A DNA stretch of 64,000 bases from a virus (IMGVR_UViG_3300037067_026422), one strand, 5' to 3'; numbered from the stretch's first letter, positions 504-45,517 are shown. Made by a program: numbers and translations. Notes: generated by a model from the letters alone, not told the origin.

Positions 504-552
504 AAATATACCACTCCATAAAATCTATGCATAAGTAATACTACTCATTAAT

Positions 553-801
553 TTATCTGCTATCACTCCAGCTCCTGCTCCAGCTACCACTCCTGCTCCA
601 GCTACCACTACTGCTCCGGTTCCAGCTACCACTCCTGCTCCTGCTACCACTCCTGCTCCTGCTACAGCTACAGCTCCTGCTACAGCTCCTGCTCCTGCTA
701 CTGCTACCAATACAGCTCCTGCTACCGCTACCGCTACTGCTACTGCTCCTGCTACTGCTCCTGCTATTTTCATAACCTGTTCTAAGTATGGCTTGGTTCA
801 T
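553..801 (-). CDS. Ser/Arg-rich low-complexity microprotein (copy 2)
   Basis: MNQAILRTGYENSRSSSRSS...SWSRSWSDSR. ATG at 801 lies 1 nt after the stop of copy 1 and shares the N-terminal motif MNQAILxTG...YENSR with it. Confidence 0.7.
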   Translation of the reverse strand: MNQAILRTGYENSRSSSRSSSSSGSGSRSCIGSSSRSRSCSRSCSCSRSRSGSRSRSGSWNRSSSGSWSRSGSWSRSWSDSR

Positions 802-802
802 A

Positions 803-1009
803 TTACTGTCTCCTACTACCTCTACTGCTTCTGCTACAGCTACCACTACCGCTACTTATCCTGCCATTACTACGGCTATAGCTACTGCTATAGTTCCAGC
901 TACCACTATTACTTCTGCTACTGTTCCTGTTTTTACTATCACTAATGCTACTCCTCCTGCTATTTTCATAGCTCAGCGTAAAACCTGTTAGAAGTATGGC
1001 TTGATTCAT
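803..1009 (-). CDS. Ser/Arg-rich low-complexity microprotein (copy 1)
   Basis: MNQAILLTGFTLSYENSRRSS...; AGGGA upstream; tandem paralog of 553-801. Confidence 0.7.
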   Translation of the reverse strand: MNQAILLTGFTLSYENSRRSSISDSKNRNSSRSNSGSWNYSSSYSRSNGRISSGSGSCSRSSRGSRRQ

Positions 1010-1121: not shown

Positions 1122-2702
1122 TTATTTAAAGTCTTTTCTTGTCAACAAAGGAGTGTCCATGACTTCCAGAACTAAATCCAGTTTATTAGTCTTCGCAAGA
1201 AGAGGGATAAGCCCCGGCAGAGCATAATAATCGTTCCCCTGGGGAGTATATATATCAAACTCGATCCCAGCACTCTTCAAATTAGAAGAAAAGGTATGGT
1301 CTGCAGGCCCAACATGGATAATCACAACATTCGGACGAGTGTTGAGTCTCTTTGCATACTCCTCATATGTCGGAGCAAACATCGGAGTAGCATTCTCCCC
1401 CTCATCTGTGATCACTACAATCGTATCCACCCGGATCCCTTTCTTAATCAGTAAACTAACAGCACAACCCATCGAGGTAGATCCACCCGGATGAATTGGA
1501 CTAAAAGCCCTCTCCCAATCACTTAATGCTTTTCCTTTCGCTACTATCTCCATAGGAGTAGTATCAAAAGCTATAACTGTCAAATTGGATACAGAAGCAC
1601 CGGAAATAAGCGCTGCTGCATTCTTACCCACCAAGATAGCCTCATGCATCGAACCTGATCGATCAACAAATACCGCGATATCCGAAGCAATAACCCCGCT
1701 CTTCTTGACCTGCTCATCAGCAACTTTATCCATCTGCTGTATGATCGTTTCATCTTTAATACGACCGGTTTTCACTGCCGTTTTAGTCTTCAGAGTAGCA
1801 ACATTCTTGGACTTCTCCGCCTTTTTGAGCTTCTCCTGAATAAGGGCCTTTGTCTGCTCATTAGCCATAACACCCTTCTCCTCAAGAGAAGCCATGTTAT
1901 TAATAACTTCCATCGGAGACATACTGTTGATAAGAGCAACCAAGATAGACGGTGTAATCTTCGGTACTATCCCTACAGCTACAGTATATGGAATATTATA
2001 GGTCACAATTAACTTTGCTGCTTCATCCGGTGCCGCAGATGCAATTTGCTTTAGAACATTGAGCTTTGAATCCTCCGGTATCTTCTTATCAAAAAGAATA
2101 GCCTGAGCCCGATCGCTACGCTTTATACAATGCTTCGACGTCTTAGAAACAAAATACAAGCTCTTAAGATCTGCACGATTTTTAAGGACAACCGCATCAA
2201 AACGCTTATCATCAGCCTCCAGCCAATGCAAATACTTCTCAACATCCTTTTTGAAGCTGGTAGGGACATTCACCTTAAGGCCTACTTCCTTCTCCTTGAT
2301 CTTAACCTCATCAACCGTCTTCTTTCCAAGCTTGATCTTATTCCCAGTCTTCTCACGAAGCTTAACTTTCTTCCCCTTGATGAAGCCAAGAATACGCGCC
2401 TTCATAAAAGGAGCATGCTCCCGGAAAAGAGCAAGACCAACCTCACGGTTATCCAGAAATGGATCTGTAATCAACATCGAAGCAAAAACTTCATTATGAT
2501 CCCGCACCTCTCCCTTTTTCAGATACCAACACGCAAGATGAGAGTAAAATAACGGATCCTGAGCCCGTATCTCTTCATGAATCTTCTTAAGGCTATCGGT
2601 ATCCCGATGAGGACACGACATAAAAGAGTTAAGGATTCTTACACGAATATCCCCCTCAACTGCCGGAGCAGCTTGAACCGGTAACGCACGACGAATAGTC
2701 AT
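1122..2702 (-). CDS. vWA-domain protein with helical N-terminus (Ro60/TROVE-like architecture)
   Basis: MIDAS motif DRSGS, GGSTSMG and VITDEGEN in a C-terminal vWA domain. ATG at 2702 has GGAG 9 nt upstream (ORF track start is TTG at 2717). Confidence 0.85.
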   Translation of the reverse strand: MTIRRALPVQAAPAVEGDIRVRILNSFMSCPHRDTDSLKKIHEEIRAQDPLFYSHLACWYLKKGEVRDHNEVFASMLITDPFLDNREVGLALFREHAPFMKARILGFIKGKKVKLREKTGNKIKLGKKTVDEVKIKEKEVGLKVNVPTSFKKDVEKYLHWLEADDKRFDAVVLKNRADLKSLYFVSKTSKHCIKRSDRAQAILFDKKIPEDSKLNVLKQIASAAPDEAAKLIVTYNIPYTVAVGIVPKITPSILVALINSMSPMEVINNMASLEEKGVMANEQTKALIQEKLKKAEKSKNVATLKTKTAVKTGRIKDETIIQQMDKVADEQVKKSGVIASDIAVFVDRSGSMHEAILVGKNAAALISGASVSNLTVIAFDTTPMEIVAKGKALSDWERAFSPIHPGGSTSMGCAVSLLIKKGIRVDTIVVITDEGENATPMFAPTYEEYAKRLNTRPNVVIIHVGPADHTFSSNLKSAGIEFDIYTPQGNDYYALPGLIPLLAKTNKLDLVLEVMDTPLLTRKDFK

Positions 2703-2765
2703 ATATTGTGTCTCCAAATTATTTGTTATCTTATATATTAGAGCATCTTTTTATTTAATGCTTCG

Positions 2766-3029
2766 TCAAACACTTCTTCCAAATGGAGTATTCGGTCTCA
2801 CTGTAATATTTCCATTCGGATTGATCTCAATAAAAGATTCCGAGAACTCTCCAATACCAACATCATATTTCTGAGCCAATGCCATACGAATCTGTACCTC
2901 TGTAACTGTTGAAGGCAGCACAGCAGTTCCCGATGGTATCCCGAGAGCTTCATGTCGCTCTACTGGGAACAACTCTTCAAAGGACAAATCTTCTTGTCTA
3001 CCACGAATCATAACATGTACACCTGACAT
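2766..3029 (-). CDS. Small putative ubiquitin-like (beta-grasp) protein
   Basis: 87 aa; VHVMIRGRQEDL...IEINPNGNITVRPNTPFG-RSV. Resembles (from memory) small bacterial proteins ending ..IVRPEAVYG that precede this vWA family. AGGGGG RBS. Confidence 0.55.
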   Translation of the reverse strand: MSGVHVMIRGRQEDLSFEELFPVERHEALGIPSGTAVLPSTVTEVQIRMALAQKYDVGIGEFSESFIEINPNGNITVRPNTPFGRSV

Positions 3030-3083
3030 ACACACCCCCTGTTGGGTTATAATATAATGTTATAGTAAATTTTAATAAAGTTG

Positions 3084-3398
3084 TTATTTTCCTATTTTCA
3101 ATCGCCACATCACGAATACCTTTAAATCCTTGTCATTTATGTATAGAGGTACCATACTTAATTCTATCTCAAACATAAACTTAAAAGCTTTTATGGCAAA
3201 GGCGCTAGAATAAGCAACCGATAACCAATTATTCAAAAAAGAAACAATGCTGTCCTCCTGTATCTCCTGCTCCTCCGATAACCTACTTTTTATTACAAGC
3301 ATAACCTTATGATAATAACTATAGCTTCTATTTTGATCCCACTCATTAAGTACCTCATGAAGCTTAATCAGGTCACCTATTACATAGCGTATACCCAT
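3084..3398 (-). CDS. Hypothetical protein
   Basis: 104-aa ORF ending PLYIND...WRLKIGK. Upstream TTGCAA-N16-TATATT lies 7 nt before the ATG (possibly leaderless). Confidence 0.7.
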   Translation of the reverse strand: MGIRYVIGDLIKLHEVLNEWDQNRSYSYYHKVMLVIKSRLSEEQEIQEDSIVSFLNNWLSVAYSSAFAIKAFKFMFEIELSMVPLYINDKDLKVFVMWRLKIGK

Positions 3399-3437
3399 TG
3401 TAACAAATATACTTTTTTAAAATTAATTTGCAAGCAT

Positions 3438-3479
3438 AAAAAAACCCTGGTAGAACTTTTTAGCTCTACCAGGGTTTTT
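3438..3479 (-). terminator. Rho-independent terminator
   Basis: Minus strand AAAAACCCTGGTAGAGCT-AAAA-AGTTCTACCAGGGTTTTTTT. A G-U pair forms only on the minus strand, and a U-tract follows the stem. Confidence 0.9.
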
Positions 3480-3511
3480 ACCTTATCCTAAATCTCATAG
3501 AGCATCACATA

Positions 3512-3539
3512 GGGACATCCTCACTCGCGTAGAGAAAGC
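3512..3539 (-). CRISPR. Solitary degenerate type I-E-like repeat followed by a 32-nt spacer-like segment (3480-3511)
   Basis: GCTTTCTCTACGCGAGTGAGGATGTCCC is 22/28 identical to the repeat at 16069-16096, with the same GCGA loop. Confidence 0.6.
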
Positions 3540-3635
3540 CATCACAAAGTCCTGTCCTACTAAACTTTGGTATTTCTTGCTCTTTATCAAGTATTAAGTG
3601 GTATAGTCTCATGTATCTTAATTCACACTTTTATT

Positions 3636-3662
3636 GTTTCAATCCACGCTTTTTATAGCGAC
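3636..3662 (-). CRISPR. Shortened type I-C-like repeat
   Basis: GTCGCTATAAAAAGCGTGGATTGAAAC: GTCGC start, CGCT/AGCG stem, canonical GCGTGGATTGAAAC 3' end. Confidence 0.75.
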
Positions 3663-3708
3663 AAACTCAAGATAAAAATTGAAACAACAAGTTACATAAG
3701 TCGTGTCT

Positions 3709-3781
3709 GCTAATTTGAAGGAGTTGAACCTTCGACCGAAAGATTAACAATCTTTTGCTCTACCAACTGAGCTAATGTAAG
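3709..3781 (-). ncRNA. tRNA-Asn(GTT)-like RNA with defective acceptor stem (tRNA mimic / Y-RNA-like candidate)
   Basis: D arm TAGCTCAGTTGGTAGAGCA, anticodon arm AAAGA-TTGTTAA-TCTTT and T arm GAAGG-TTCAACT-CCTTC are intact. Acceptor CTTACAT/AAATTAG pairs only 4/7 and there is no CCA. Enclosed by a long outer stem 3678-3696/3795-3814. Confidence 0.8.
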
Positions 3782-3806
3782 CCTTCACAGTAATTGTAAC
3801 TTGTTT

Positions 3807-3840
3807 GTTCCAATCTACGCACCGCTTCTTTCAGTGCGAC
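3807..3840 (-). CRISPR. Type I-C-like repeat
   Basis: GTCGCACTGAAAGAAGCGGTGCGTAGATTGGAAC: 7-bp stem CGCACTG/CGGTGCG, matching the I-C pattern GTCGCAC...GTGCGTGGATTGAAA(C/T). Confidence 0.75.
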
Positions 3841-3846
3841 CCTATA

Positions 3847-3875
3847 ATAATACTATATTCTTTTTTAAAAAACAA
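3847..3875 (-). promoter_or_regulatory. Sigma70-type promoter for the ncRNA unit
   Basis: TTGTTT-N17-TATTAT; predicted +1 falls at about 3840, the first G of the repeat. Confidence 0.6.
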
Positions 3876-3930
3876 ATACTTTTTTAAAATGAAATTCGTG
3901 GGATATTTTATATAGATCGTGTAGAATAAT

Positions 3931-4287
3931 TTATTTTTCTACTTTCATACCAGGAAACTTACCTTTAACCGCCCGATATACTGCATTTTTTAATTCCTCC
4001 AAGGATCCCTTCCACCAGTCCGGTGCAGCAGAATACTGATTTACACGTGCAAGGGCATTCTGTCCATGGGCCTTGTCAGGAATAGGAAAATGATCATTTT
4101 TATCTTTCACCTTAGGATGCTCAGCAGGAAATATAGCAGCAGGACGATCCTTACCCGCAGGAAGCACTTTAGCCATCTTCTCAATAGTATTGGCTATAAT
4201 ATCCAATTCTTCCGCCTCTTTAAGCAGGCCATTACTTTCCACATCATTAGCTACATTATCAAGACTGGCTACAATATTTTTAAACAT
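3931..4287 (-). CDS. Hypothetical protein (DUF6582-like C-terminal motif)
   Basis: HFPIPDKAHGQNALARVNQ motif; helical N-terminus IVASLDNVANDVE...EAEELDIIAN. Confidence 0.75.
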   Translation of the reverse strand: MFKNIVASLDNVANDVESNGLLKEAEELDIIANTIEKMAKVLPAGKDRPAAIFPAEHPKVKDKNDHFPIPDKAHGQNALARVNQYSAAPDWWKGSLEELKNAVYRAVKGKFPGMKVEK

Positions 4288-14765: not shown

Positions 14766-17700
14766 TTATATTCGGTACATGATGCAGAGTATTAAAAATG
14801 CGTCTATTGATATATTGTCTGTTGATTTGTAAAAAATCTCTCCATCCCTACTCAGTATGCATAACTTTTGCTTGGGCCCTATAAACAGGTTGTCACCCCC
14901 AGTTCTAATTATCTCTAAAATATGTCGTAATTGACGAGCTGATACCGGATCAATGTCCATAGGATAATTGAAATAGCCTTCAGCATCAATTCTATCCATT
15001 ATCTTTGCATCCTTAAACAGCGTATCAGCTATATTACTTGCTGTTTTATTCAGTACTGCATGAGCATCACTTTTAATATCCACCCCATCGACAAGCATAC
15101 TCTTAACAGTAATATCTTTATAATAGTTATCCGCACTACTTAAGGTAGTACTGACAGGTTCTACTATCGCAGGATCAGAAGTTGCAGGATCAGAAGATGT
15201 TTCAACGACTGGTTCAGTTTTATGAGCTACTTCAAAATTACCAGTACCTTCTTTTTTTATCTTTTCCTTATATTCTTCCCAATAGTTATGGTCAACATCA
15301 AAAGTATCACCATACTCAGCATCCACATCAAAAGGAACTTCCCACTTGAGCTTGTCCGTAAGATCTCTCAGTTTCATAATCCGACATAGCTCCGGTATTA
15401 CAAAATCAAGCTTATCTTCTTTTACCTCAAAAAGAATTTCATCATGTATCGGGAGAAGAATCTTGATATCCTCCTGAAGATTGTTTTCACAGATCCATTT
15501 ATAAACTCTCCATAAAGCAATCTTTATTACATCAGCCCCCGTATTTTTACTGATGATACCTGCTGAATCAAACCTGTGTAGATCAGAATGAACGGATAAT
15601 GTAAAGGTATCTTCAGTTTTATCTATAATAGTTTTCTTTTTTAATTTATAGTGATAGTATATCTCGGATGGAAGCTCACACCCATATTTCTTCATCATCA
15701 AGAGCATACCCGGCAAGGTTACTTTTTTACCCGTATTAAGCTTACAAAAGTATGCACAATCATTAACATTCTTTCTGTCATATACTGAATAGAGTTTATT
15801 TTGAAATTCCTTTCTCAAAAATTCCGGTAGGATCATCTTGTTAATAGTACTTCTTCTTTTCCACTCTGTAGAAGGTAATCCCAACACCTCCTCTACTTTT
15901 TTAAGATCTTGCCATTCAAGTTTATAGGTATCTTCAGAAACCTTCCTTACAATAGAAGGCAGCCCAATTGACCAGCCTATAAGTTGTGTATCTCTTAACA
16001 ATGCTACAGAAACACCTCCACTCGCGTAGGGAAAACTTATACTTATGTGATGATCGAGAATGAGCTCGGAAACACCCCCACTCGCGTAGGGAAAACTATT
16101 ACAATCATCTGTATCAAAGTATCCCTTTATAAAAGCTGTCCTCATACTAATAGGAGATCTAAAAATCATTTCCGGTATACGCTTAGGTCTTGAGTCAGCA
16201 GGTTGATAACCTAATTCTATAAATAGATCAACCAAACCTTTTGAATTTATCTCCGGAAGATATTTTTTTAATCTTTCATCTTCCAGATTTAATTTCAGGG
16301 ACAATCTGGGGTTAGTTCTTATATCATCTCCTACTACATACCCCATCAAATAGGCTATAAAATCCCATTGCTCTTTAGAGTCTATGACAAAACTTTTTCC
16401 ATTATGAACTGATGCCTTATATTCATATCTTGGTGGATAGCTTCCAAATTCTTTAGCCAAAGGAATAGACACGCATATATCGGTATTTTCATCAAGGTCC
16501 TTAAAATGCCGAAATTCATACCCTTTTTCACCTACAACCAAAACTTCGTGTCGTGTATCACACCTTAAAAGCATACCATTAGATAGTTCTATTGTTGCTA
16601 ATTGACACTTCCCCCTATTAAGAACATCAAAGCTAGCCCATGTGGTACCCGTCCATATTTTTAGATGCTCTCCTTTATCCTTAAACTCCTTAATAGTTCC
16701 TATTGATATATAACCATACTTATCCGTTAAGCACCGCTCTTCCTTAACAAGGCAACCCTGTACGGCTGAATTTATTGCGCATCTATCTCCCTTCGCCTGT
16801 ATCCCTTTATCAGGAGAATTGTAGAATTCCCCAAGAGAACGTCGTCGACCAAACGCAGTCTTACTATACCCACGCTTCTTGGCAGCTTTCCATTCACGCT
16901 GGATCCAGCTACTCAAACCCTTATATTCCTTAAAGAAATTAATAATCATCTTTTTGGCTGTCTCATAGGGTATCTTTGCTTGTGCAGCAAATCCTCCTGC
17001 TCCTCCCCCATATAAAGTTAGGAAATTCAAGGTCTTACCGATCCCGCGTTCTCTCTTGGTAATCTCACTTTTACCCGTGATAATCTTACCTGTGATAGTA
17101 TGCAGATCGCCTGTACCGTGAAGAAACTCATGCAACCATTTAGGCTCTTTAGAAACATTGGCAGCTACCCTCAATTCTTCTCCACTATAGTCTATGGACA
17201 ACATCTTATATCCAGGGTGCGCTATCATTGCTTTACGGAGGTTAATAGAGTGCGGGTCTTCTTTATTATAGGTAGGGACATTCTGACAGTTGACACCACA
17301 GTAACCATCTATTTTCACACCATAACCACCCGAACCGCTAAAACGACCCGTATCCGCCTGAACCTGATTTAGTTTGAATTTAACCTCATCATTTTCATCA
17401 GCATTGATTAACCAGTTGTGCAAATAGGTGCTTTGAACTTTGACATAACCACGATAGGTCAAAACCATATTCATTAGGGGATTTTTAGTCTCCACCATCT
17501 CAAGCACTTCACCATTAGTCTGATACCCCCCAGCTTTTGTCCTTTCAGCTTTTTTAGGATATGGTAATTTAAGCTCATCAAATAAGATCACCCCAAGCTG
17601 CTGTGCAGAGTTTATATCAAATTCATGCCCTACGATGGTATATATCTCTTTTAACAGCTTCTGCATCCTACGCTCTACTTCAATATTCACTTCCTCAAGA

Positions 17701-37156: not shown

Positions 37157-38347
37157 TTAATCAAATATCAGTGTGGGTCCACTATGTCTCTTGTATCCTA
37201 TTCCATTTTCAGTTACTACTTCAGCACTATAAGGATACACTATGATATATTCCACTTTTGTCTCATTGTAACTAAAAATCCCTGCGTATACAGTAAGAGA
37301 CACGGTATAATAACCAGATTCGGTATATGTATGAACAGGGTTCTTCTCCGTAGAATGAGGGGACCCATCCCCGAAATCCCAATCCCAGGCAGTCACAGCT
37401 CCCTCAGTCAGATCTGTAAAGTTAACAATCAAATCAGCTATACCATATCTTGGAGACCCAAAAAAATCCACGATTATTGATATTATCACATCAATTGAAA
37501 TTGTTGAGGACCAGAGGGATTCCAATAATAAAGACGAGGATTGAGCTTTTACTCTATAATAGTATGTTCCATAAGCCGGGACTGTGTCATTATAATTGGT
37601 CTGAAGTACAGTTACTGACACTGGGGTTAAAAAGCTTGGGGTAGTATCCCGTTCAAGAACATATTGATTTGCTCCAATAGAGGCATCCCAATCTATCAAT
37701 ACCCCCCAAGAAGAACCAATCTGAATAGCATTTAAATTCTGAGGAGCTTCTATCGTATAACTTTCTATGTACACATTTGGCGGGGATGCAACGTCAAGGT
37801 AAGTAATATCCAATTCAATTTTACCTTGATTTACATAGCTACTAATTTGACTCAATCTACTTCCGGACCATGTAAGATCTTCTATAGCTGGTAAGTCAGG
37901 ATTTCTTATATTGTGATAAAGGGCAGATTTCAACTCAGTAGCACTATTAAGGGTTATTACTCTTATAGCGTTTCCGGCTGATACATATACATCTACAGAA
38001 GTTATATCAGTATCAAGGCCTGTCTTTGAATACGTAATAACAGGTGGGGAAGCAACATATGGTTCTATTTCATACAGGGATAAGACATGTGATCGATCTA
38101 CTACCCAAATCCAAAATCTATCCGTATCCAATGTAAGGTCATTTTTAAGAGCTATAGTTATCTTATAATTATTAGCTAAAAAAGTGTTAGCTACATAAAT
38201 TTGACCTTCATATTCTTTTACTATAACTCTACCATAACCAAGTTGTACAGCCCATAAAGTGCCCTTTACTATAATACCCTGAGGTTCGGTCTCTATCCCA
38301 ATAGAACTTACAGGGTATTCATTTCTATCTAAAGAAGGTAAGGACAT
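37157..38347 (-). CDS. FN3 + PKD domain virion protein
   Basis: APQNL...W...Y...YYYRVKA (FN3) followed by WDWDFGDG...NPVHTY (PKD). Confidence 0.8.
   Translation of the reverse strand: MSLPSLDRNEYPVSSIGIETEPQGIIVKGTLWAVQLGYGRVIVKEYEGQIYVANTFLANNYKITIALKNDLTLDTDRFWIWVVDRSHVLSLYEIEPYVASPPVITYSKTGLDTDITSVDVYVSAGNAIRVITLNSATELKSALYHNIRNPDLPAIEDLTWSGSRLSQISSYVNQGKIELDITYLDVASPPNVYIESYTIEAPQNLNAIQIGSSWGVLIDWDASIGANQYVLERDTTPSFLTPVSVTVLQTNYNDTVPAYGTYYYRVKAQSSSLLLESLWSSTISIDVIISIIVDFFGSPRYGIADLIVNFTDLTEGAVTAWDWDFGDGSPHSTEKNPVHTYTESGYYTVSLTVYAGIFSYNETKVEYIIVYPYSAEVVTENGIGYKRHSGPTLIFD
37233..37455. repeat. 223-nt direct repeat, copy A (PKD coding)
   Basis: 6 mismatches versus 43563-43785. Confidence 0.9.
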
Positions 38348-43150: not shown

Positions 43151-45517
43151 TTAATCAAAGATCAGTGTAGAACCCTGTTCTCTGGCAAATCCTGTTCCGA
43201 GTACCTCTGAAAAAACATTTTTTATTTCTACACCAGTCTCCATCTTTTTAGCCAATCCTGTACCCCATAAATATGCCTTTTTATCTGGATCGGGAGCAAC
43301 ATCATAAGTAGAGACATTAACCACTATGATATAACTATTTTTTGTTACGGTAAATGTCCCACTTATGCCAGATACGGTAAGATAAACAGTATATACCCCC
43401 GGGTGATCATAATAATGAGAAGGGTTTTGTGTGTAAGATACTTCCCCGTCACCAAAAGCCCAGAACCAGCTATTAAAAAAACCAGAAGAAATATCCTCAA
43501 ACTGAACAGTCAAAAATCTATACCCCTGCCTTGGAGTACCTATGAAATCAACATTAATATACGGATACACTACGATATATTCCACTTTTGTCTCATTGTA
43601 ACTAAAAACCCCTGCGTATACAGTAAGAGACACGGTATAATAACCAGATTCGGTATATATATGAACAGGATTCTTCTCCGTAGAATGAGGGGACCCATCC
43701 CCGAAATCCCAATCCCAGGCAGTCACAGCTCCCTCAGTCAGATCGGTAAAGTTAACAATCAGATCAGCTATACCATATCTTGGAGTACCTATGAAATCAG
43801 CATTAATATACGGAGGAATTATAGAAAATTCATACGCACCTATACTGGGGGGGTCTGCGTACTCAATTCCTAATATGTCGTATACTAATACCCCAGATAT
43901 AAACTGCCTTCCTGAATGATAACATGGACTTGTTCCATCTATTGATAGTGGATCGGACCCAGATCCTGCAAATTTTGGATCTTCCACTATTTCTGTAGCA
44001 TCTGGTGCTATAGGTAGTTCATTTTCCAAATACTCAAAATCAACCGTCATTACATTATTTGAGTGTATGAAACCTAACACTAAGCAATTTGATAAATTTA
44101 TTAAAGCGGATGGAACTACTTGATCTGTGTTAATTGCATTATTGTAGAAATGCAATACATTTAAGGGCATTCTACTTAACGATATTGCTACCCCTTGATA
44201 TGTTACACTTCTTATTGAGTTTCCCACTATTATTATATTATTATAATCTCCTACATAATTTGCATCTCTTTTGTAAATACTGCCTGCAGTTGTAGTTACA
44301 GATAGGTATATATCACCCTCTGGTGTTATTGCTATTCCCTGATACAACCTTGCCTGATTCTGTAGTGACGTGAAGGTAGTTGACCCCGCTGGTTGCCTGT
44401 ATACCGATCCACCTTTTCTTACTACATACACATCTCCGTTTGAAGCTACTGCTACTCCTCTTCCTTCAGCTGGTATAGAAGCTACTTGTAAAAAACCTCC
44501 CGTTCCACCAGTTCTTTTATATATTGCACCACCACTTGTTATTGCATATATATCACCATTTGGTGCTGCTCCTATACCTGACCAGTATCTGTCAGGTTCA
44601 TTTAGCGATACAAAACCAGCCCCTGAATCACAATAAATACCTTGATTCAAATTTGGGTCATGTACAACTCCACTAACTGCGTATACATCTCCGTTAGGGG
44701 CTACTGCTACACCCTCCCACGCTACGTCGGTTACAGAAAATATTGGTGTGAATGCACCGGCTCCTACTTTTTTGTATATAAACCCATTAAAGCTCACATC
44801 AGTACATGCATATATGGTATTTCCATCTGGGGATACTGCTACATCCATGTACCATGTGTCCGGGGCACCTAATGACACAAAATTACCTGTCCCCCCCATT
44901 TGTATAAAAATGTCACCTTGGGGTCCTGAGGCTGCTGCATACACATTCCCTAACGCATCTGAATCCATACCTTGCCACGAAGAAGAACCGCCAGGGGACT
45001 GATTTAGGTTTAGAAACTCTCCGTATGTTCCTGTATTGCTTAGTGAGATAGCATCTTCTGTAAAACCCTCAAATGTATTTCCTACGTACGTAATATCTTG
45101 TTTTTCATATTGAACTATTGCATTTGCAGCTATCCCACCACCATTAAATCTACAATGCTCAACCGTTGCGGGCCCATATACAAATTGATTTCCATCTGCG
45201 TCAATAGTATCTGTAAATATCCCAATATTTCTTAAAATACATCCTATAGCATCTGAATAGAAATTTCCAGTGCTTATATTTATCCTATCAATGAGTGAGT
45301 CTGTTCCAATAACAGAAGCTCCATAAACTGGGTACCCACCCCATTCATTAGGCTCTGTTACTAACCCATTTACGTACACTATGTCACCCACAGATAGTTC
45401 ATAGATTCCTTCTGTGTCCAAAGCAAGGAACAACTCATAAAAAGAAGTTGCCGCAGTTATCCTTGAGTCAAAAGGGTAAGTATTAGATCCTGTTGCTTCT
45501 ACATAATAAACTGCCAT
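43151..45517 (-). CDS. Beta-helix + beta-propeller + 2x PKD virion protein
   Basis: Repeated W.GVAVAPNGDVYA blades, SPC...G...D..G.....PSIGAYE, two PKD domains. Confidence 0.75.
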   Translation of the reverse strand: MAVYYVEATGSNTYPFDSRITAATSFYELFLALDTEGIYELSVGDIVYVNGLVTEPNEWGGYPVYGASVIGTDSLIDRINISTGNFYSDAIGCILRNIGIFTDTIDADGNQFVYGPATVEHCRFNGGGIAANAIVQYEKQDITYVGNTFEGFTEDAISLSNTGTYGEFLNLNQSPGGSSSWQGMDSDALGNVYAAASGPQGDIFIQMGGTGNFVSLGAPDTWYMDVAVSPDGNTIYACTDVSFNGFIYKKVGAGAFTPIFSVTDVAWEGVAVAPNGDVYAVSGVVHDPNLNQGIYCDSGAGFVSLNEPDRYWSGIGAAPNGDIYAITSGGAIYKRTGGTGGFLQVASIPAEGRGVAVASNGDVYVVRKGGSVYRQPAGSTTFTSLQNQARLYQGIAITPEGDIYLSVTTTAGSIYKRDANYVGDYNNIIIVGNSIRSVTYQGVAISLSRMPLNVLHFYNNAINTDQVVPSALINLSNCLVLGFIHSNNVMTVDFEYLENELPIAPDATEIVEDPKFAGSGSDPLSIDGTSPCYHSGRQFISGVLVYDILGIEYADPPSIGAYEFSIIPPYINADFIGTPRYGIADLIVNFTDLTEGAVTAWDWDFGDGSPHSTEKNPVHIYTESGYYTVSLTVYAGVFSYNETKVEYIVVYPYINVDFIGTPRQGYRFLTVQFEDISSGFFNSWFWAFGDGEVSYTQNPSHYYDHPGVYTVYLTVSGISGTFTVTKNSYIIVVNVSTYDVAPDPDKKAYLWGTGLAKKMETGVEIKNVFSEVLGTGFAREQGSTLIFD
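43563..43785. repeat. 223-nt direct repeat, copy B (PKD coding)
   Basis: About 97% identical to 37233-37455, offset 6330 nt. Confidence 0.9.

What the first reader, a model, noticed from the sequence alone, without database searches (positions are those of the whole stretch)
3636..3875. tRNA mimic bracketed by type I-C CRISPR repeats in a dedicated ncRNA transcript
Seen (minus strand): promoter TTGTTT-N17-TATTAT firing at the first base of repeat GTCGCACTGAAAGAAGCGGTGCGTAGATTGGAAC, then a 144-nt 'spacer', then repeat GTCGCTATAAAAAGCGTGGATTGAAAC. The 144 nt contain intact D, anticodon (GTT) and T arms but a 4/7 acceptor stem and no CCA. Knowledge: Cas5d cuts I-C repeats at the 3' base of the hairpin; bacterial Y RNAs mimic tRNA and lie beside Ro60 genes; solitary repeats can act as RNA anti-CRISPRs. 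Inference: the phage uses host Cas5d as the maturase or sensor for a tRNA-like RNA, or the RNA decoys Cascade and/or anticodon nucleases. I know no described system that combines these parts.
Basis: partly seen in the sequence, partly recalled or inferred. Interest (0 to 1): 0.9.

Follow-up and report, generated by a model that had tools for sequence, protein, structure and literature searches.

The report
CRISPR-repeat decoys in phage Y-RNA operon
A giant groundwater phage makes one small non-coding transcript that combines a tRNA-shaped RNA, probably the partner of a hidden Ro60 protein encoded next door, with two look-alikes of a bacterial type I-C CRISPR repeat, and related phages repeat this pairing, so it looks like a combined RNA toolkit against host defence.

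Summary
On the minus strand, 3875..3440 runs from a promoter-like site to a strong terminator. It holds repeat R1 (3840..3807), a tRNA-Asn(GTT)-like RNA (3782..3708; acceptor 4/7, no CCA) and repeat R2 (3662..3636).

Three points change the reading.

1. The tRNA mimic is one member of a module family. An outer stem that covaries and a conserved internal-loop "platform" carry a variable insert: a tRNA body, a whole tRNA with CCA, a permuted YrlA-like fold, or hairpins.

2. The 531-aa gene 0.7 kb downstream (2717..1122) has no Pfam TROVE match but folds as full-length Ro60. Of 24 related loci scanned, 21 carry tRNA-like genes on the same strand, 20 of them just upstream of this gene. The mimic is therefore most likely a Y RNA.

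3. Type I-C repeat mimics recur only in these operons: 14 hits in 12 of 67 loci, against 0 in 978 kb elsewhere. Their hairpins covary, their positions shift, and some copies are decayed. Relatives without them keep the same modules.

The repeats are therefore best read as co-transcribed RNA anti-CRISPRs of the Racr type, not as an obligatory Cas5d maturation signal. No binding, cleavage or expression is shown.

This scan has noted lone CRISPR repeats in phage tRNA clusters on other DNA before. I rate it a new variant of known kinds, with interest 0.62.

The parts
3847..3875 (-). Promoter-like site: -35-like hexamer at 3875..3870, a 17-nt spacer, and a -10-like hexamer at 3852..3847, ending 7 nt before R1.
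   Evidence: Read. It falls below the consensus scan threshold. The block is conserved in L004, L085, L213 and L291. The transcription start is inferred.
3807..3840 (-). R1: a 34-nt type I-C-like repeat unit with a 7-bp hairpin and an 11-nt handle carrying 2 mismatches.
   Evidence: Orthologues lie at L213 3267-3297 and L291 8530-8563. The hairpin covaries. The handle is paired into the module's outer stem in the minimum-energy fold.
3795..3815 (-). Outer stem, 5' strand. It overlaps the R1 handle.
   Evidence: Consensus fold shows 12 pairs with compensatory changes. Minimum-energy fold. Duplex energy against mismatched-partner controls.
3775..3792 (-). Platform 5' motif: TACNGT, the 5' strand of helix P2, then CTTACAT.
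   Evidence: Conserved in about 40 modules from about 20 phage loci. The P2 pairs are compensated in L213 and L291.
3708..3782 (-). tRNA-like body with D, anticodon (GTT) and T arms. The acceptor position is filled by the conserved, non-helical platform sequence, and there is no CCA.
   Evidence: ARAGORN. Rfam tRNA at 55.2 bits with three non-standard acceptor pairs. Stem covariation and a variable anticodon loop.
3698..3716 (-). Platform 3' motif: AAATTAGCA, the 3' strand of helix P2, then CGACTT.
3677..3696 (-). Outer stem, 3' strand.
3636..3662 (-). R2: a 27-nt minimal type I-C repeat mimic. Its 5' end and 14-nt 3' end are exact, and its hairpin is 4 bp.
   Evidence: Published I-C repeats. 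More than 116 IMG/VR contigs carry similarly shortened solitary units.
3480..3635 (-). Downstream non-coding part of the transcript. It includes a hairpin at 3545..3512 that resembles two in-frame repeats inside the DNA polymerase intein (16009-16102).
   Evidence: Its ends are homologous to the last RNA of the operon in relatives. Its function is unknown, and its CRISPR type was not confirmed.
3440..3479 (-). Intrinsic terminator: an 18-bp stem followed by a T run.
2766..3398 (-). Two small ORFs (104 aa at 3398..3084 and 89 aa at 3035..2766) between the RNA cassette and the Ro60-like gene.
   Evidence: The same pair is present in L291 and L292. No family or structure match was found.
1122..2717 (-). 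Cryptic Ro60 homologue: a helical ring followed by a vWA domain with a DxSxS metal-binding (MIDAS) motif.
   Evidence: The window protein has no Pfam match at the default threshold (E <= 0.01). At E <= 1 it has two sub-cut-off vWA matches and no TROVE match, and 8 of 27 family members match vWA_Ro60. The AF2 model has pLDDT 83. The top 12 listed Foldseek PDB hits are all Ro60 or TROVE over 544-594 alignment columns, with E from 5e-11 to 1e-8 and TM 0.50-0.59. More than 366 homologues occur on contigs of up to 512 kb.

Best explanation
3875..3440(-) is a promoter-to-terminator non-coding RNA operon of a huge phage. The window's Ro60-like gene was seen on a contig of 239 kb. A related 210-kb contig is rated 45% complete.

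The core of the operon (3815..3677) is a tRNA-shaped RNA seated on a conserved platform stem. I read it as a Y-RNA-type partner of the cryptic Ro60 protein encoded 0.7 kb downstream. Two type I-C CRISPR repeat mimics are transcribed with it. Most likely they act as RNA anti-CRISPRs (Racr-type solitary repeat units). They would be bound, and perhaps cut, by host Cas5d, and would trap Cascade subunits in dead-end complexes. The stably folded Y-like RNA next to each repeat would be RNA that Cas7 cannot coat.

Shown:
- the anatomy of the cassette;
- covariation of the platform stems and the repeat hairpins;
- the Ro60 fold of the neighbouring protein;
- recurrent linkage of Ro60 gene, tRNA-like modules and I-C mimics in related phages;
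- the non-decoding nature of the mimic.

Inferred:
- transcription as one RNA;
- Ro60 binding;
- Cas5d or Cascade binding;
- a host that has a type I-C system.
For: tRNA mimic:
- Searches give a good tRNA score with a 4/7 acceptor and no CCA.
- Seven orthologous modules aligned (nine) keep the D, T and anticodon stems through compensatory changes. The acceptor mismatches are invariant, and two relatives carry changes there that leave them unpaired.
- The anticodon loops of the nine orthologues are GTT, GAT, TCT, a 6-nt loop, TCT, TTT, TAT, ATT and TTT.

Platform:
- The same flanks enclose whole tRNAs with CCA, permuted YrlA-like folds and plain hairpins.
- Outer stems differ in sequence but stay complementary. 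Mean duplex energy is -15.7 kcal/mol, against -6.5 for mismatched partners.
- Permuted modules give sub-threshold Rfam YrlA matches of 27-30 bits.

Ro60:
- Searches support the fold and the sequence link.
- tRNA-like genes lie on the same strand in 21 of 24 relative loci, upstream of the gene in 20 of them.
- Known phage Ro60 genes also have Y-like RNAs just upstream (PMC4201824, PMC12135203).

Repeats:
- Both ends match real I-C repeats.
- In 17 units from 11 loci the hairpin is 98.5% paired, with 10 double-sided changes and 0 of 500 shuffles as high.
- There are 14 units in Ro60-upstream operons and 0 elsewhere.
- Shortened solitary I-C units are common in viral contigs.
- RacrIC1 is experimentally validated (PMC10651486).
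- No Cas5d was found on the relatives' contigs.
- Decayed copies in L290 and L291, and their absence in L004, fit a dispensable counter-defence part.
Against: - There is no RNA data, so neither transcription as one unit nor cleavage is shown.
- The host is unknown, so a host type I-C system is assumed.
- The R1 handle has 2-3 mismatches and is base-paired in the outer stem. R1 may therefore be a poor Cas5d ligand.
- Relatives without the R1 hairpin still begin this stem with a handle-like RTTGARRY. I cannot explain this.
- The bacterial Ro60-binding motif GNCGAAN0-1G is absent. Only a TGAAG/CGAAG resemblance occurs, and only in this module type.
- Rfam YrlA does not match the window's RNA.
- Only 12 of 67 loci carry intact units, so the repeats are not a core part of the operon.
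- The rest of this phage genome could not be searched for cas genes or I-C arrays.
Confidence: 0.55

Rival explanations
1. Cas5d-dependent maturation. Host Cas5d cuts at R1 and R2 and releases the tRNA-like RNA with an 11-nt 5' handle and a 3' hairpin. This processing would be needed for the RNA to work, or would report the presence of Cas5d.
For: In several loci a repeat is fused directly, or within 18 nt, to the 5' side of a module (W R1, L213 R1 and R2, L220, L261). Repeat-module-repeat layouts occur in the window, L085 and L219.
Against: L004, L211 and L212 carry the same module types with no repeat, or with one elsewhere. The number of modules between repeats varies from 1 to 3. Some copies are decayed. 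Only 12 of 67 loci have intact units. The modules therefore mature without Cas5d in most relatives.
Confidence: 0.12
2. The tRNA-shaped modules are decoys or sponges for host tRNA-directed defence enzymes such as anticodon nucleases, with or without Ro60. The repeats would be an independent add-on.
For: The anticodon loop is the most variable part of otherwise conserved scaffolds. Whole-tRNA modules with near-identical bodies carry different anticodons: Cys-GCA in L004 and Lys-CTT in L211. Some loops have aberrant sizes.
Against: No nuclease or target is identified. Loop variability could also reflect a lack of constraint in a pure mimic. This reading does not exclude the main explanation.
Confidence: 0.13
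3. The repeats are cutting sites for, or leftovers of, the phage's own CRISPR system. A phage-encoded Cas5d- or Cas6-like enzyme would process the operon.
For: Huge phages often carry CRISPR parts. Earlier notes of this scan (unchecked) report a cas-less array elsewhere in this genome, and self-matching lone repeats in other phages.
Against: No Cas5d family match was found on four relatives' contigs, though these are only 9-45% complete. No other I-C-like unit occurs in the 64-kb window or in the 210-kb relative. The array noted elsewhere is described as I-E-like, not I-C.
Confidence: 0.08
4. It is an ordinary, if odd, tRNA-Asn gene used for decoding, with processing stems, and the repeat resemblance is incidental.
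For: The tRNA score is high and all tertiary-contact positions are present.
Against: The acceptor is 4/7 and its mismatches are conserved. There is no CCA. The ends are buried in a stem of about 20 bp. Orthologues carry seven different anticodon loops, including a 6-nt loop. R2's exact 14-nt match and the 14-versus-0 enrichment exclude chance.
Confidence: 0.04
5. It is a viral crRNA-like regulator. The sequence after a repeat would guide host Cascade to silence a host gene.
For: Such viral RNAs are described (bioRxiv 10.1101/2024.10.29.618823; abstract seen).
Against: The sequences after the units are not conserved. They are A-rich linkers or structured stems. No target can be sought without knowing the host.
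Confidence: 0.05

Closest known systems
RNA anti-CRISPRs / viral solitary repeat units, especially RacrIC1 (Camara-Wilpert et al. 2023, PMC10651486)
   Same: Lone repeat mimics in a viral genome, with no cas genes found in what could be searched, transcribed from a phage promoter. They carry the I-C repeat signature at both ends. Shortened-hairpin forms are common in viral contigs.
   Different: Here two units sit inside a multi-part ncRNA operon, fused to tRNA-like or Y-like modules next to a Ro60 gene. One unit's handle is part of a module stem. No known acr gene is recognised nearby. Activity is untested.
YrlA-class Y RNAs with Ro60/Rsr (Chen et al. 2014, PMC4201824; Rfam RF02553)
   Same: A tRNA-like domain with D and T arms carried on a long stem formed by the 5' and 3' ends, encoded beside a Ro60 gene. 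A YUAY-like element (CTTACAT) is present. Permuted YrlA-like versions occur in relatives.
   Different: The window's RNA keeps the normal tRNA order and a full anticodon arm. It lacks the GNCGAAN0-1G motif and fails the Rfam model. The platform accepts many kinds of insert, and several modules occur per operon. The Ro60 is too divergent for Pfam TROVE.
Thermus phage phiLo Ro60 with Yrl1 and Yrl2 (PMC12135203; PDB 9KOP, 9L5Y)
   Same: A phage Ro60 with Y-like RNA genes directly upstream. A role against host defence was proposed by that paper's authors.
   Different: The Foldseek rows for these two entries show only 13-14% identity, and the RNA motifs differ. No CRISPR repeat mimics are reported there in the passages I read.
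Canonical type I-C CRISPR arrays (for example Legionella, PMC5071653; Xanthomonas citri, PMC9504256)
   Same: The same 5' GTCGC, the same hairpin, and the same 3' GCGTGGATTGAAAC. The GATTGGAAC variant seen in R1 also occurs in natural arrays.
   Different: There is no regular array, no spacers of about 34 nt, and no cas genes. The gap is 144 nt of structured RNA. R2's hairpin is cut down to 4 bp.

Membership tests
Type I-C CRISPR repeat mimic / solitary repeat unit (Racr candidate) | The sequence signature of I-C repeats at the 5' end, the hairpin and the 11-nt 3' handle. | tested here: met
   R2 is exact at both ends. R1 has 2 handle mismatches. The hairpin covaries.
Type I-C CRISPR repeat mimic / solitary repeat unit (Racr candidate) | Solitary: not part of a repeat-spacer array, and no adjacent cas genes. 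| tested here: met
   There are only two units in 64 kb, 178 nt apart. No Cas5d was found on the relatives' contigs. The rest of this genome was not searchable.
Type I-C CRISPR repeat mimic / solitary repeat unit (Racr candidate) | Binding or processing by Cas5d, and inhibition of I-C interference. | not testable with these tools
   No RNA runs hold the stretch and no assay is possible. The host is unknown.
Y RNA / YrlA | Encoded next to a Ro60 (TROVE plus vWA) gene. | tested here: met
   The Ro60 fold is full length. Members match vWA_Ro60. The gene starts 723 nt after the cassette's terminator. Linkage is seen in 21 of 24 relative loci.
Y RNA / YrlA | A long stem formed by the 5' and 3' ends, with a conserved internal loop, carrying a tRNA-like domain. 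| tested here: met
Y RNA / YrlA | YrlA topology (acceptor closed by a loop, anticodon stem open towards the Ro60 stem) and a match to the Rfam model. | tested here: not met
   The window's RNA has the normal tRNA order and a closed anticodon arm, and gives no RF02553 match at E <= 10. Relatives hold permuted modules scoring 27-30 bits, below the gathering score of 69.
Y RNA / YrlA | The Ro60-binding motif GNCGAAN0-1G near the 5' end (PMC4201824). | tested here: inconclusive
   The window has GTGAAGG at that place and L213 has GCGAAGG. Other module types have neither.
Y RNA / YrlA | Physical binding to Ro60. | not testable with these tools
   No RNA-protein prediction or assay is available.
Functional (decoding) tRNA-Asn | A 7-bp acceptor stem and a 3' end that can carry CCA. 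| tested here: not met
   The acceptor is 4/7 with conserved mismatches, there is no CCA, and the ends are buried in a long stem.
Functional (decoding) tRNA-Asn | The anticodon is kept among orthologues. | tested here: not met
   Nine orthologues carry seven different loops, one of them 6 nt long.

The most novel reading that the evidence does not exclude
The repeat-module units are one coupled machine. Cas5d cutting would yield Y-like RNAs that carry an I-C 5' handle (and, between two repeats, a 3' hairpin). The same RNA would then be held both by host Cascade subunits and by the phage Ro60 ring. That would tether the host's CRISPR complex to a Ro60 RNP, and through it to a host exonuclease such as PNPase, so that the complex is sequestered or its crRNA destroyed. 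In parallel, the hypervariable anticodon loops would make the tRNA-shaped part a fast-evolving decoy for tRNA-directed host nucleases.
Probability: 0.15. Interest if true: 0.9.

Novelty: new variant of a known kind. Interest (0 to 1): 0.62.

Why it matters
Three things follow if this holds.

1. A large clade of huge phages (more than 366 homologues, on contigs of up to 512 kb) carries a Ro60 that family searches miss. Each comes with arrays of modular tRNA-like RNAs. This widens the Ro60/Y RNA system in viruses. It also explains tRNA-mimic RNAs that were noted elsewhere in this genome as having "no Ro60 nearby".

2. RNA anti-CRISPRs would be shown to be built into structured ncRNA operons rather than standing alone. 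That bears on how they are expressed, processed and found by search tools.

3. The recurrent pairing of I-C mimics with Ro60-linked RNAs gives a concrete, testable link between the poorly understood role of phage Ro60 and CRISPR evasion. The phiLo study has speculated about such a link.

Tried and rejected
- Exact R1 and R2 scans of IMG/VR found nothing.
- The platform-motif scan of IMG/VR gave 88 stretches, about what chance predicts. The matches outside the relatives already fetched failed the flank check, apart from L085. L071 lies in coding sequence and was rejected.
- No whole genome is held for this window. The contig carrying the window's Ro60 is not on record. The rest of this phage genome, including any cas genes or arrays, could therefore not be searched.
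- No RNA holder is listed for the stretch, so there is no evidence on expression or RNA ends.
- Rfam CRISPR-DR models give only weak matches to R2 and none to the intein repeats.
- The Cas5d family search on the relatives' contigs was blank, but those contigs are only 9-45% complete.
- The two small ORFs between the cassette and Ro60 gave no family, PDB or Atlas lead. Whether they are Acr or Aca proteins is open.
- The genome-wide scan for R1-like repeats hit arrays in many phyla and does not point to a host.
- A CUGAUGA string in the leader hairpin of L085 and L214 was considered as a hammerhead core. It was dropped because no stem II or GAAA geometry is present.

Full report
**What is there**

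All genes of the window lie on the minus strand. They include an NAD ligase, an intein-bearing DNA polymerase, a DnaB-type helicase and tail proteins. The DNA comes from a groundwater metagenome. The window's Ro60-like protein was seen on a 239-kb contig. A related 210-kb contig is rated 45% complete. This is a huge phage.

Between ORF 4287..3931 and ORF 3398..3084 lies a 530-nt non-coding stretch. Reading the minus strand, it contains:
- promoter-like hexamers at 3875..3870 and 3852..3847;
- repeat R1 at 3840..3807;
- a tRNA-like RNA at 3782..3708;
- repeat R2 at 3662..3636;
- about 155 nt of further RNA;
- an 18-bp terminator at 3479..3440.

ARAGORN calls tRNA-Asn(GTT). Rfam tRNA gives 55.2 bits but marks three acceptor pairs as non-standard, and no CCA follows. 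An identical 201-nt contig spanning R2, the mimic and part of R1 is present in an unrelated landfill study.

**The tRNA mimic is a module on a conserved platform**

Related contigs were found through the flanking proteins. They carry one to seven or more such elements at the same place.

Each element has three parts:
- an outer stem of 10-20 bp whose sequence differs from module to module;
- a conserved internal loop and short helix (TACNGT, helix P2, CTTACAT on the 5' side, and ...AGCA, helix P2, CGACTY on the 3' side);
- a variable insert.

The insert takes four forms:
- a tRNA body without its own acceptor stem, as in the window;
- a complete tRNA with a 7-bp acceptor and CCA;
- a circularly permuted tRNA-like fold that gives sub-threshold Rfam YrlA matches of 27-30 bits;
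- plain hairpins.

The consensus fold of seven orthologues of the window's module has 32 pairs. Fifteen of them show double-sided changes, including the outer stem, both P2 helices, the anticodon stem and the T stem. Across 59 regex-defined modules, which include some false positives, the outer strands pair at a mean of -15.7 kcal/mol. Mismatched partners pair at -6.5.

The acceptor-position sequence (TACAT opposite AAATT) is conserved, and changes there are not compensated.

The anticodon loop is the most variable part. The nine orthologues have GTT, GAT, TCT, a 6-nt loop, TCT, TTT, TAT, ATT and TTT. This RNA is therefore a structural tRNA mimic and not a decoding tRNA.

**The neighbour is a cryptic Ro60**

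ORF 2717..1122 (531 aa) has no Pfam match at the default threshold and only a weak PHROG "RNA-binding protein" hit. It has more than 366 homologues, mostly unannotated, on contigs of up to 512 kb.

An AlphaFold model built from 27 homologues has pLDDT 83. Its top 12 listed Foldseek PDB hits are all Ro60 or TROVE structures over 544-594 alignment columns. They come from frog, human, Deinococcus Rsr and Thermus phage phiLo, with E from 5e-11 to 1e-8 and TM 0.50-0.59. Lower hits cover only the vWA domain. Eight of the 27 members match Pfam vWA_Ro60. The DxSxS metal-binding (MIDAS) motif is invariant.

In 21 of 24 relative loci scanned, tRNA or tRNA-like genes lie on the same strand. In 20 of them they lie 0.6-3 kb upstream of this gene. 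Many have odd anticodons or loops.

Bacterial and phage Ro60 genes are known to sit beside tRNA-like Y RNAs (PMC4201824). PhiLo Ro60 binds two Y-like RNAs encoded just upstream of it (PMC12135203).

I infer that the modules are Y-type partners of this Ro60. Binding is not shown. The window's RNA fails the formal YrlA tests of topology, Rfam model and 5' motif.

**The repeats**

R2 has the exact 5' GTCGC and the exact 3' 14 nt of published I-C repeats. R1-type ends form real arrays with a period of about 66 nt in Bacillota, Bacteroidales, Ignavibacteriales and others.

Similar units occur in the homologous operons of L085 (2), L213 (2), L291 (2, one decayed), L219 (3), L211, L214, L220, L232/L252, L241, L261 and L277/L278.

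In an alignment of 17 units from 11 loci, the flanks are conserved while the hairpin covaries. It is 98.5% paired with 10 double-sided changes, and 0 of 500 shuffles reach that.

Under a strict definition there are 14 units in 194 kb upstream of, and on the same strand as, the Ro60 gene, in 12 of 67 loci. There are none in 978 kb of everything else.

Shortened solitary I-C units are also widespread in IMG/VR. More than 116 contigs carry one, and a single variant accounts for 56 of them. A type I-C RNA anti-CRISPR has been validated experimentally.

**Why decoy rather than maturase**

- The positions of the units shift. They occur after the promoter, between modules, or before the last RNA.
- The number of modules between two units ranges from one to three.
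- L004 has the same modules and no intact unit.
- L290 and L291 carry decayed copies.

The modules must therefore mature without Cas5d in most relatives. The bracketed layout in the window reflects a reduced operon with a single module.

Many units are nevertheless fused directly to the 5' side of a module. The R1 handle is also part of the module's outer stem. A functional coupling is therefore not excluded, and I give it as the novel case. Relatives without the R1 hairpin still start that stem with a handle-like sequence. This remains unexplained.

**Limits**

- No RNA run holds the stretch.
- The host is unknown.
- The rest of the genome could not be searched.
- No binding could be tested.

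**Earlier notes of this scan**

Lone CRISPR repeats inside phage tRNA clusters were reported before on other DNA (notes e1-5708583, e1-5708601, e1-5481885; unchecked).

In this genome, notes e1-5753207 and e1-5753208 describe YrlA-like RNAs beside a DUF7873 gene, and e1-5753207 says there is no Ro60 nearby. In the relative L290, that gene lies about 7.4 kb downstream of the cryptic Ro60, and a YrlA-like match of 30 bits follows it. The Ro60 identified here is thus a candidate partner for those RNAs too.

**Verdict**

The locus combines two known kinds, Ro60 with a Y-like tRNA mimic and type I-C RNA anti-CRISPR candidates, in an arrangement I did not find described in the papers I could search.

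Noticed in passing
window 16009-16102 (-) and 3512-3545 (-): Two 34-nt direct repeats 60 nt apart lie in frame inside the DNA polymerase intein. The cassette hairpin at 3545..3512 shares their core: 23 invariant columns, including an 11-nt exact run.
   Followed up: partly
L004 4935-5009 versus L211 1914-1989: Whole-tRNA modules with CCA have nearly identical bodies and acceptor stems but different anticodon loops (Cys-GCA versus Lys-CTT). Other relatives have TAT, CAA or TCA at this position. The anticodon seems to be swapped on a fixed scaffold.
   Followed up: partly
IMG/VR loci L094-L209: More than 116 viral contigs each carry one shortened type I-C repeat unit. A single variant with a UUCG-type tetraloop accounts for 56 of them, many from one metagenome. 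This is a large family of minimal Racr candidates.
   Followed up: partly
L217 3050-4400: A relative carries seven or more platform modules in a row. Several have their own promoter-like site, and the flank motif varies (GCGTACAT).
   Followed up: no
L261 3537-3600: An I-C-like unit is followed after 5 nt by a tRNA D arm, so the repeat replaces the 5' acceptor strand.
   Followed up: no
L290 18998-20255: A DUF7873 gene about 7.4 kb downstream of the Ro60 homologue is followed by an RNA with a sub-threshold YrlA match (30 bits). In the window's genome the equivalent lies just beyond the window start, according to earlier notes.
   Followed up: partly
window 3881-3893, 3406-3433 and 3905-3918: A motif AAAAAGTAT(A)TT recurs before the RNA operon and before ORF 3398..3084, and also in relatives. 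An ACGATCTATAT block upstream of the operon is conserved as well. These may be phage-specific promoter or regulatory sites.
   Followed up: no
window 536-975: A dense tandem repeat with 12- and 18-nt periodicity (17 overlapping copies) lies inside short ORFs downstream of the Ro60 gene.
   Followed up: no
window 37228-37468 and 43558-43798: A 241-nt duplication at 95% identity, 6.3 kb apart, lies within large structural genes.
   Followed up: no
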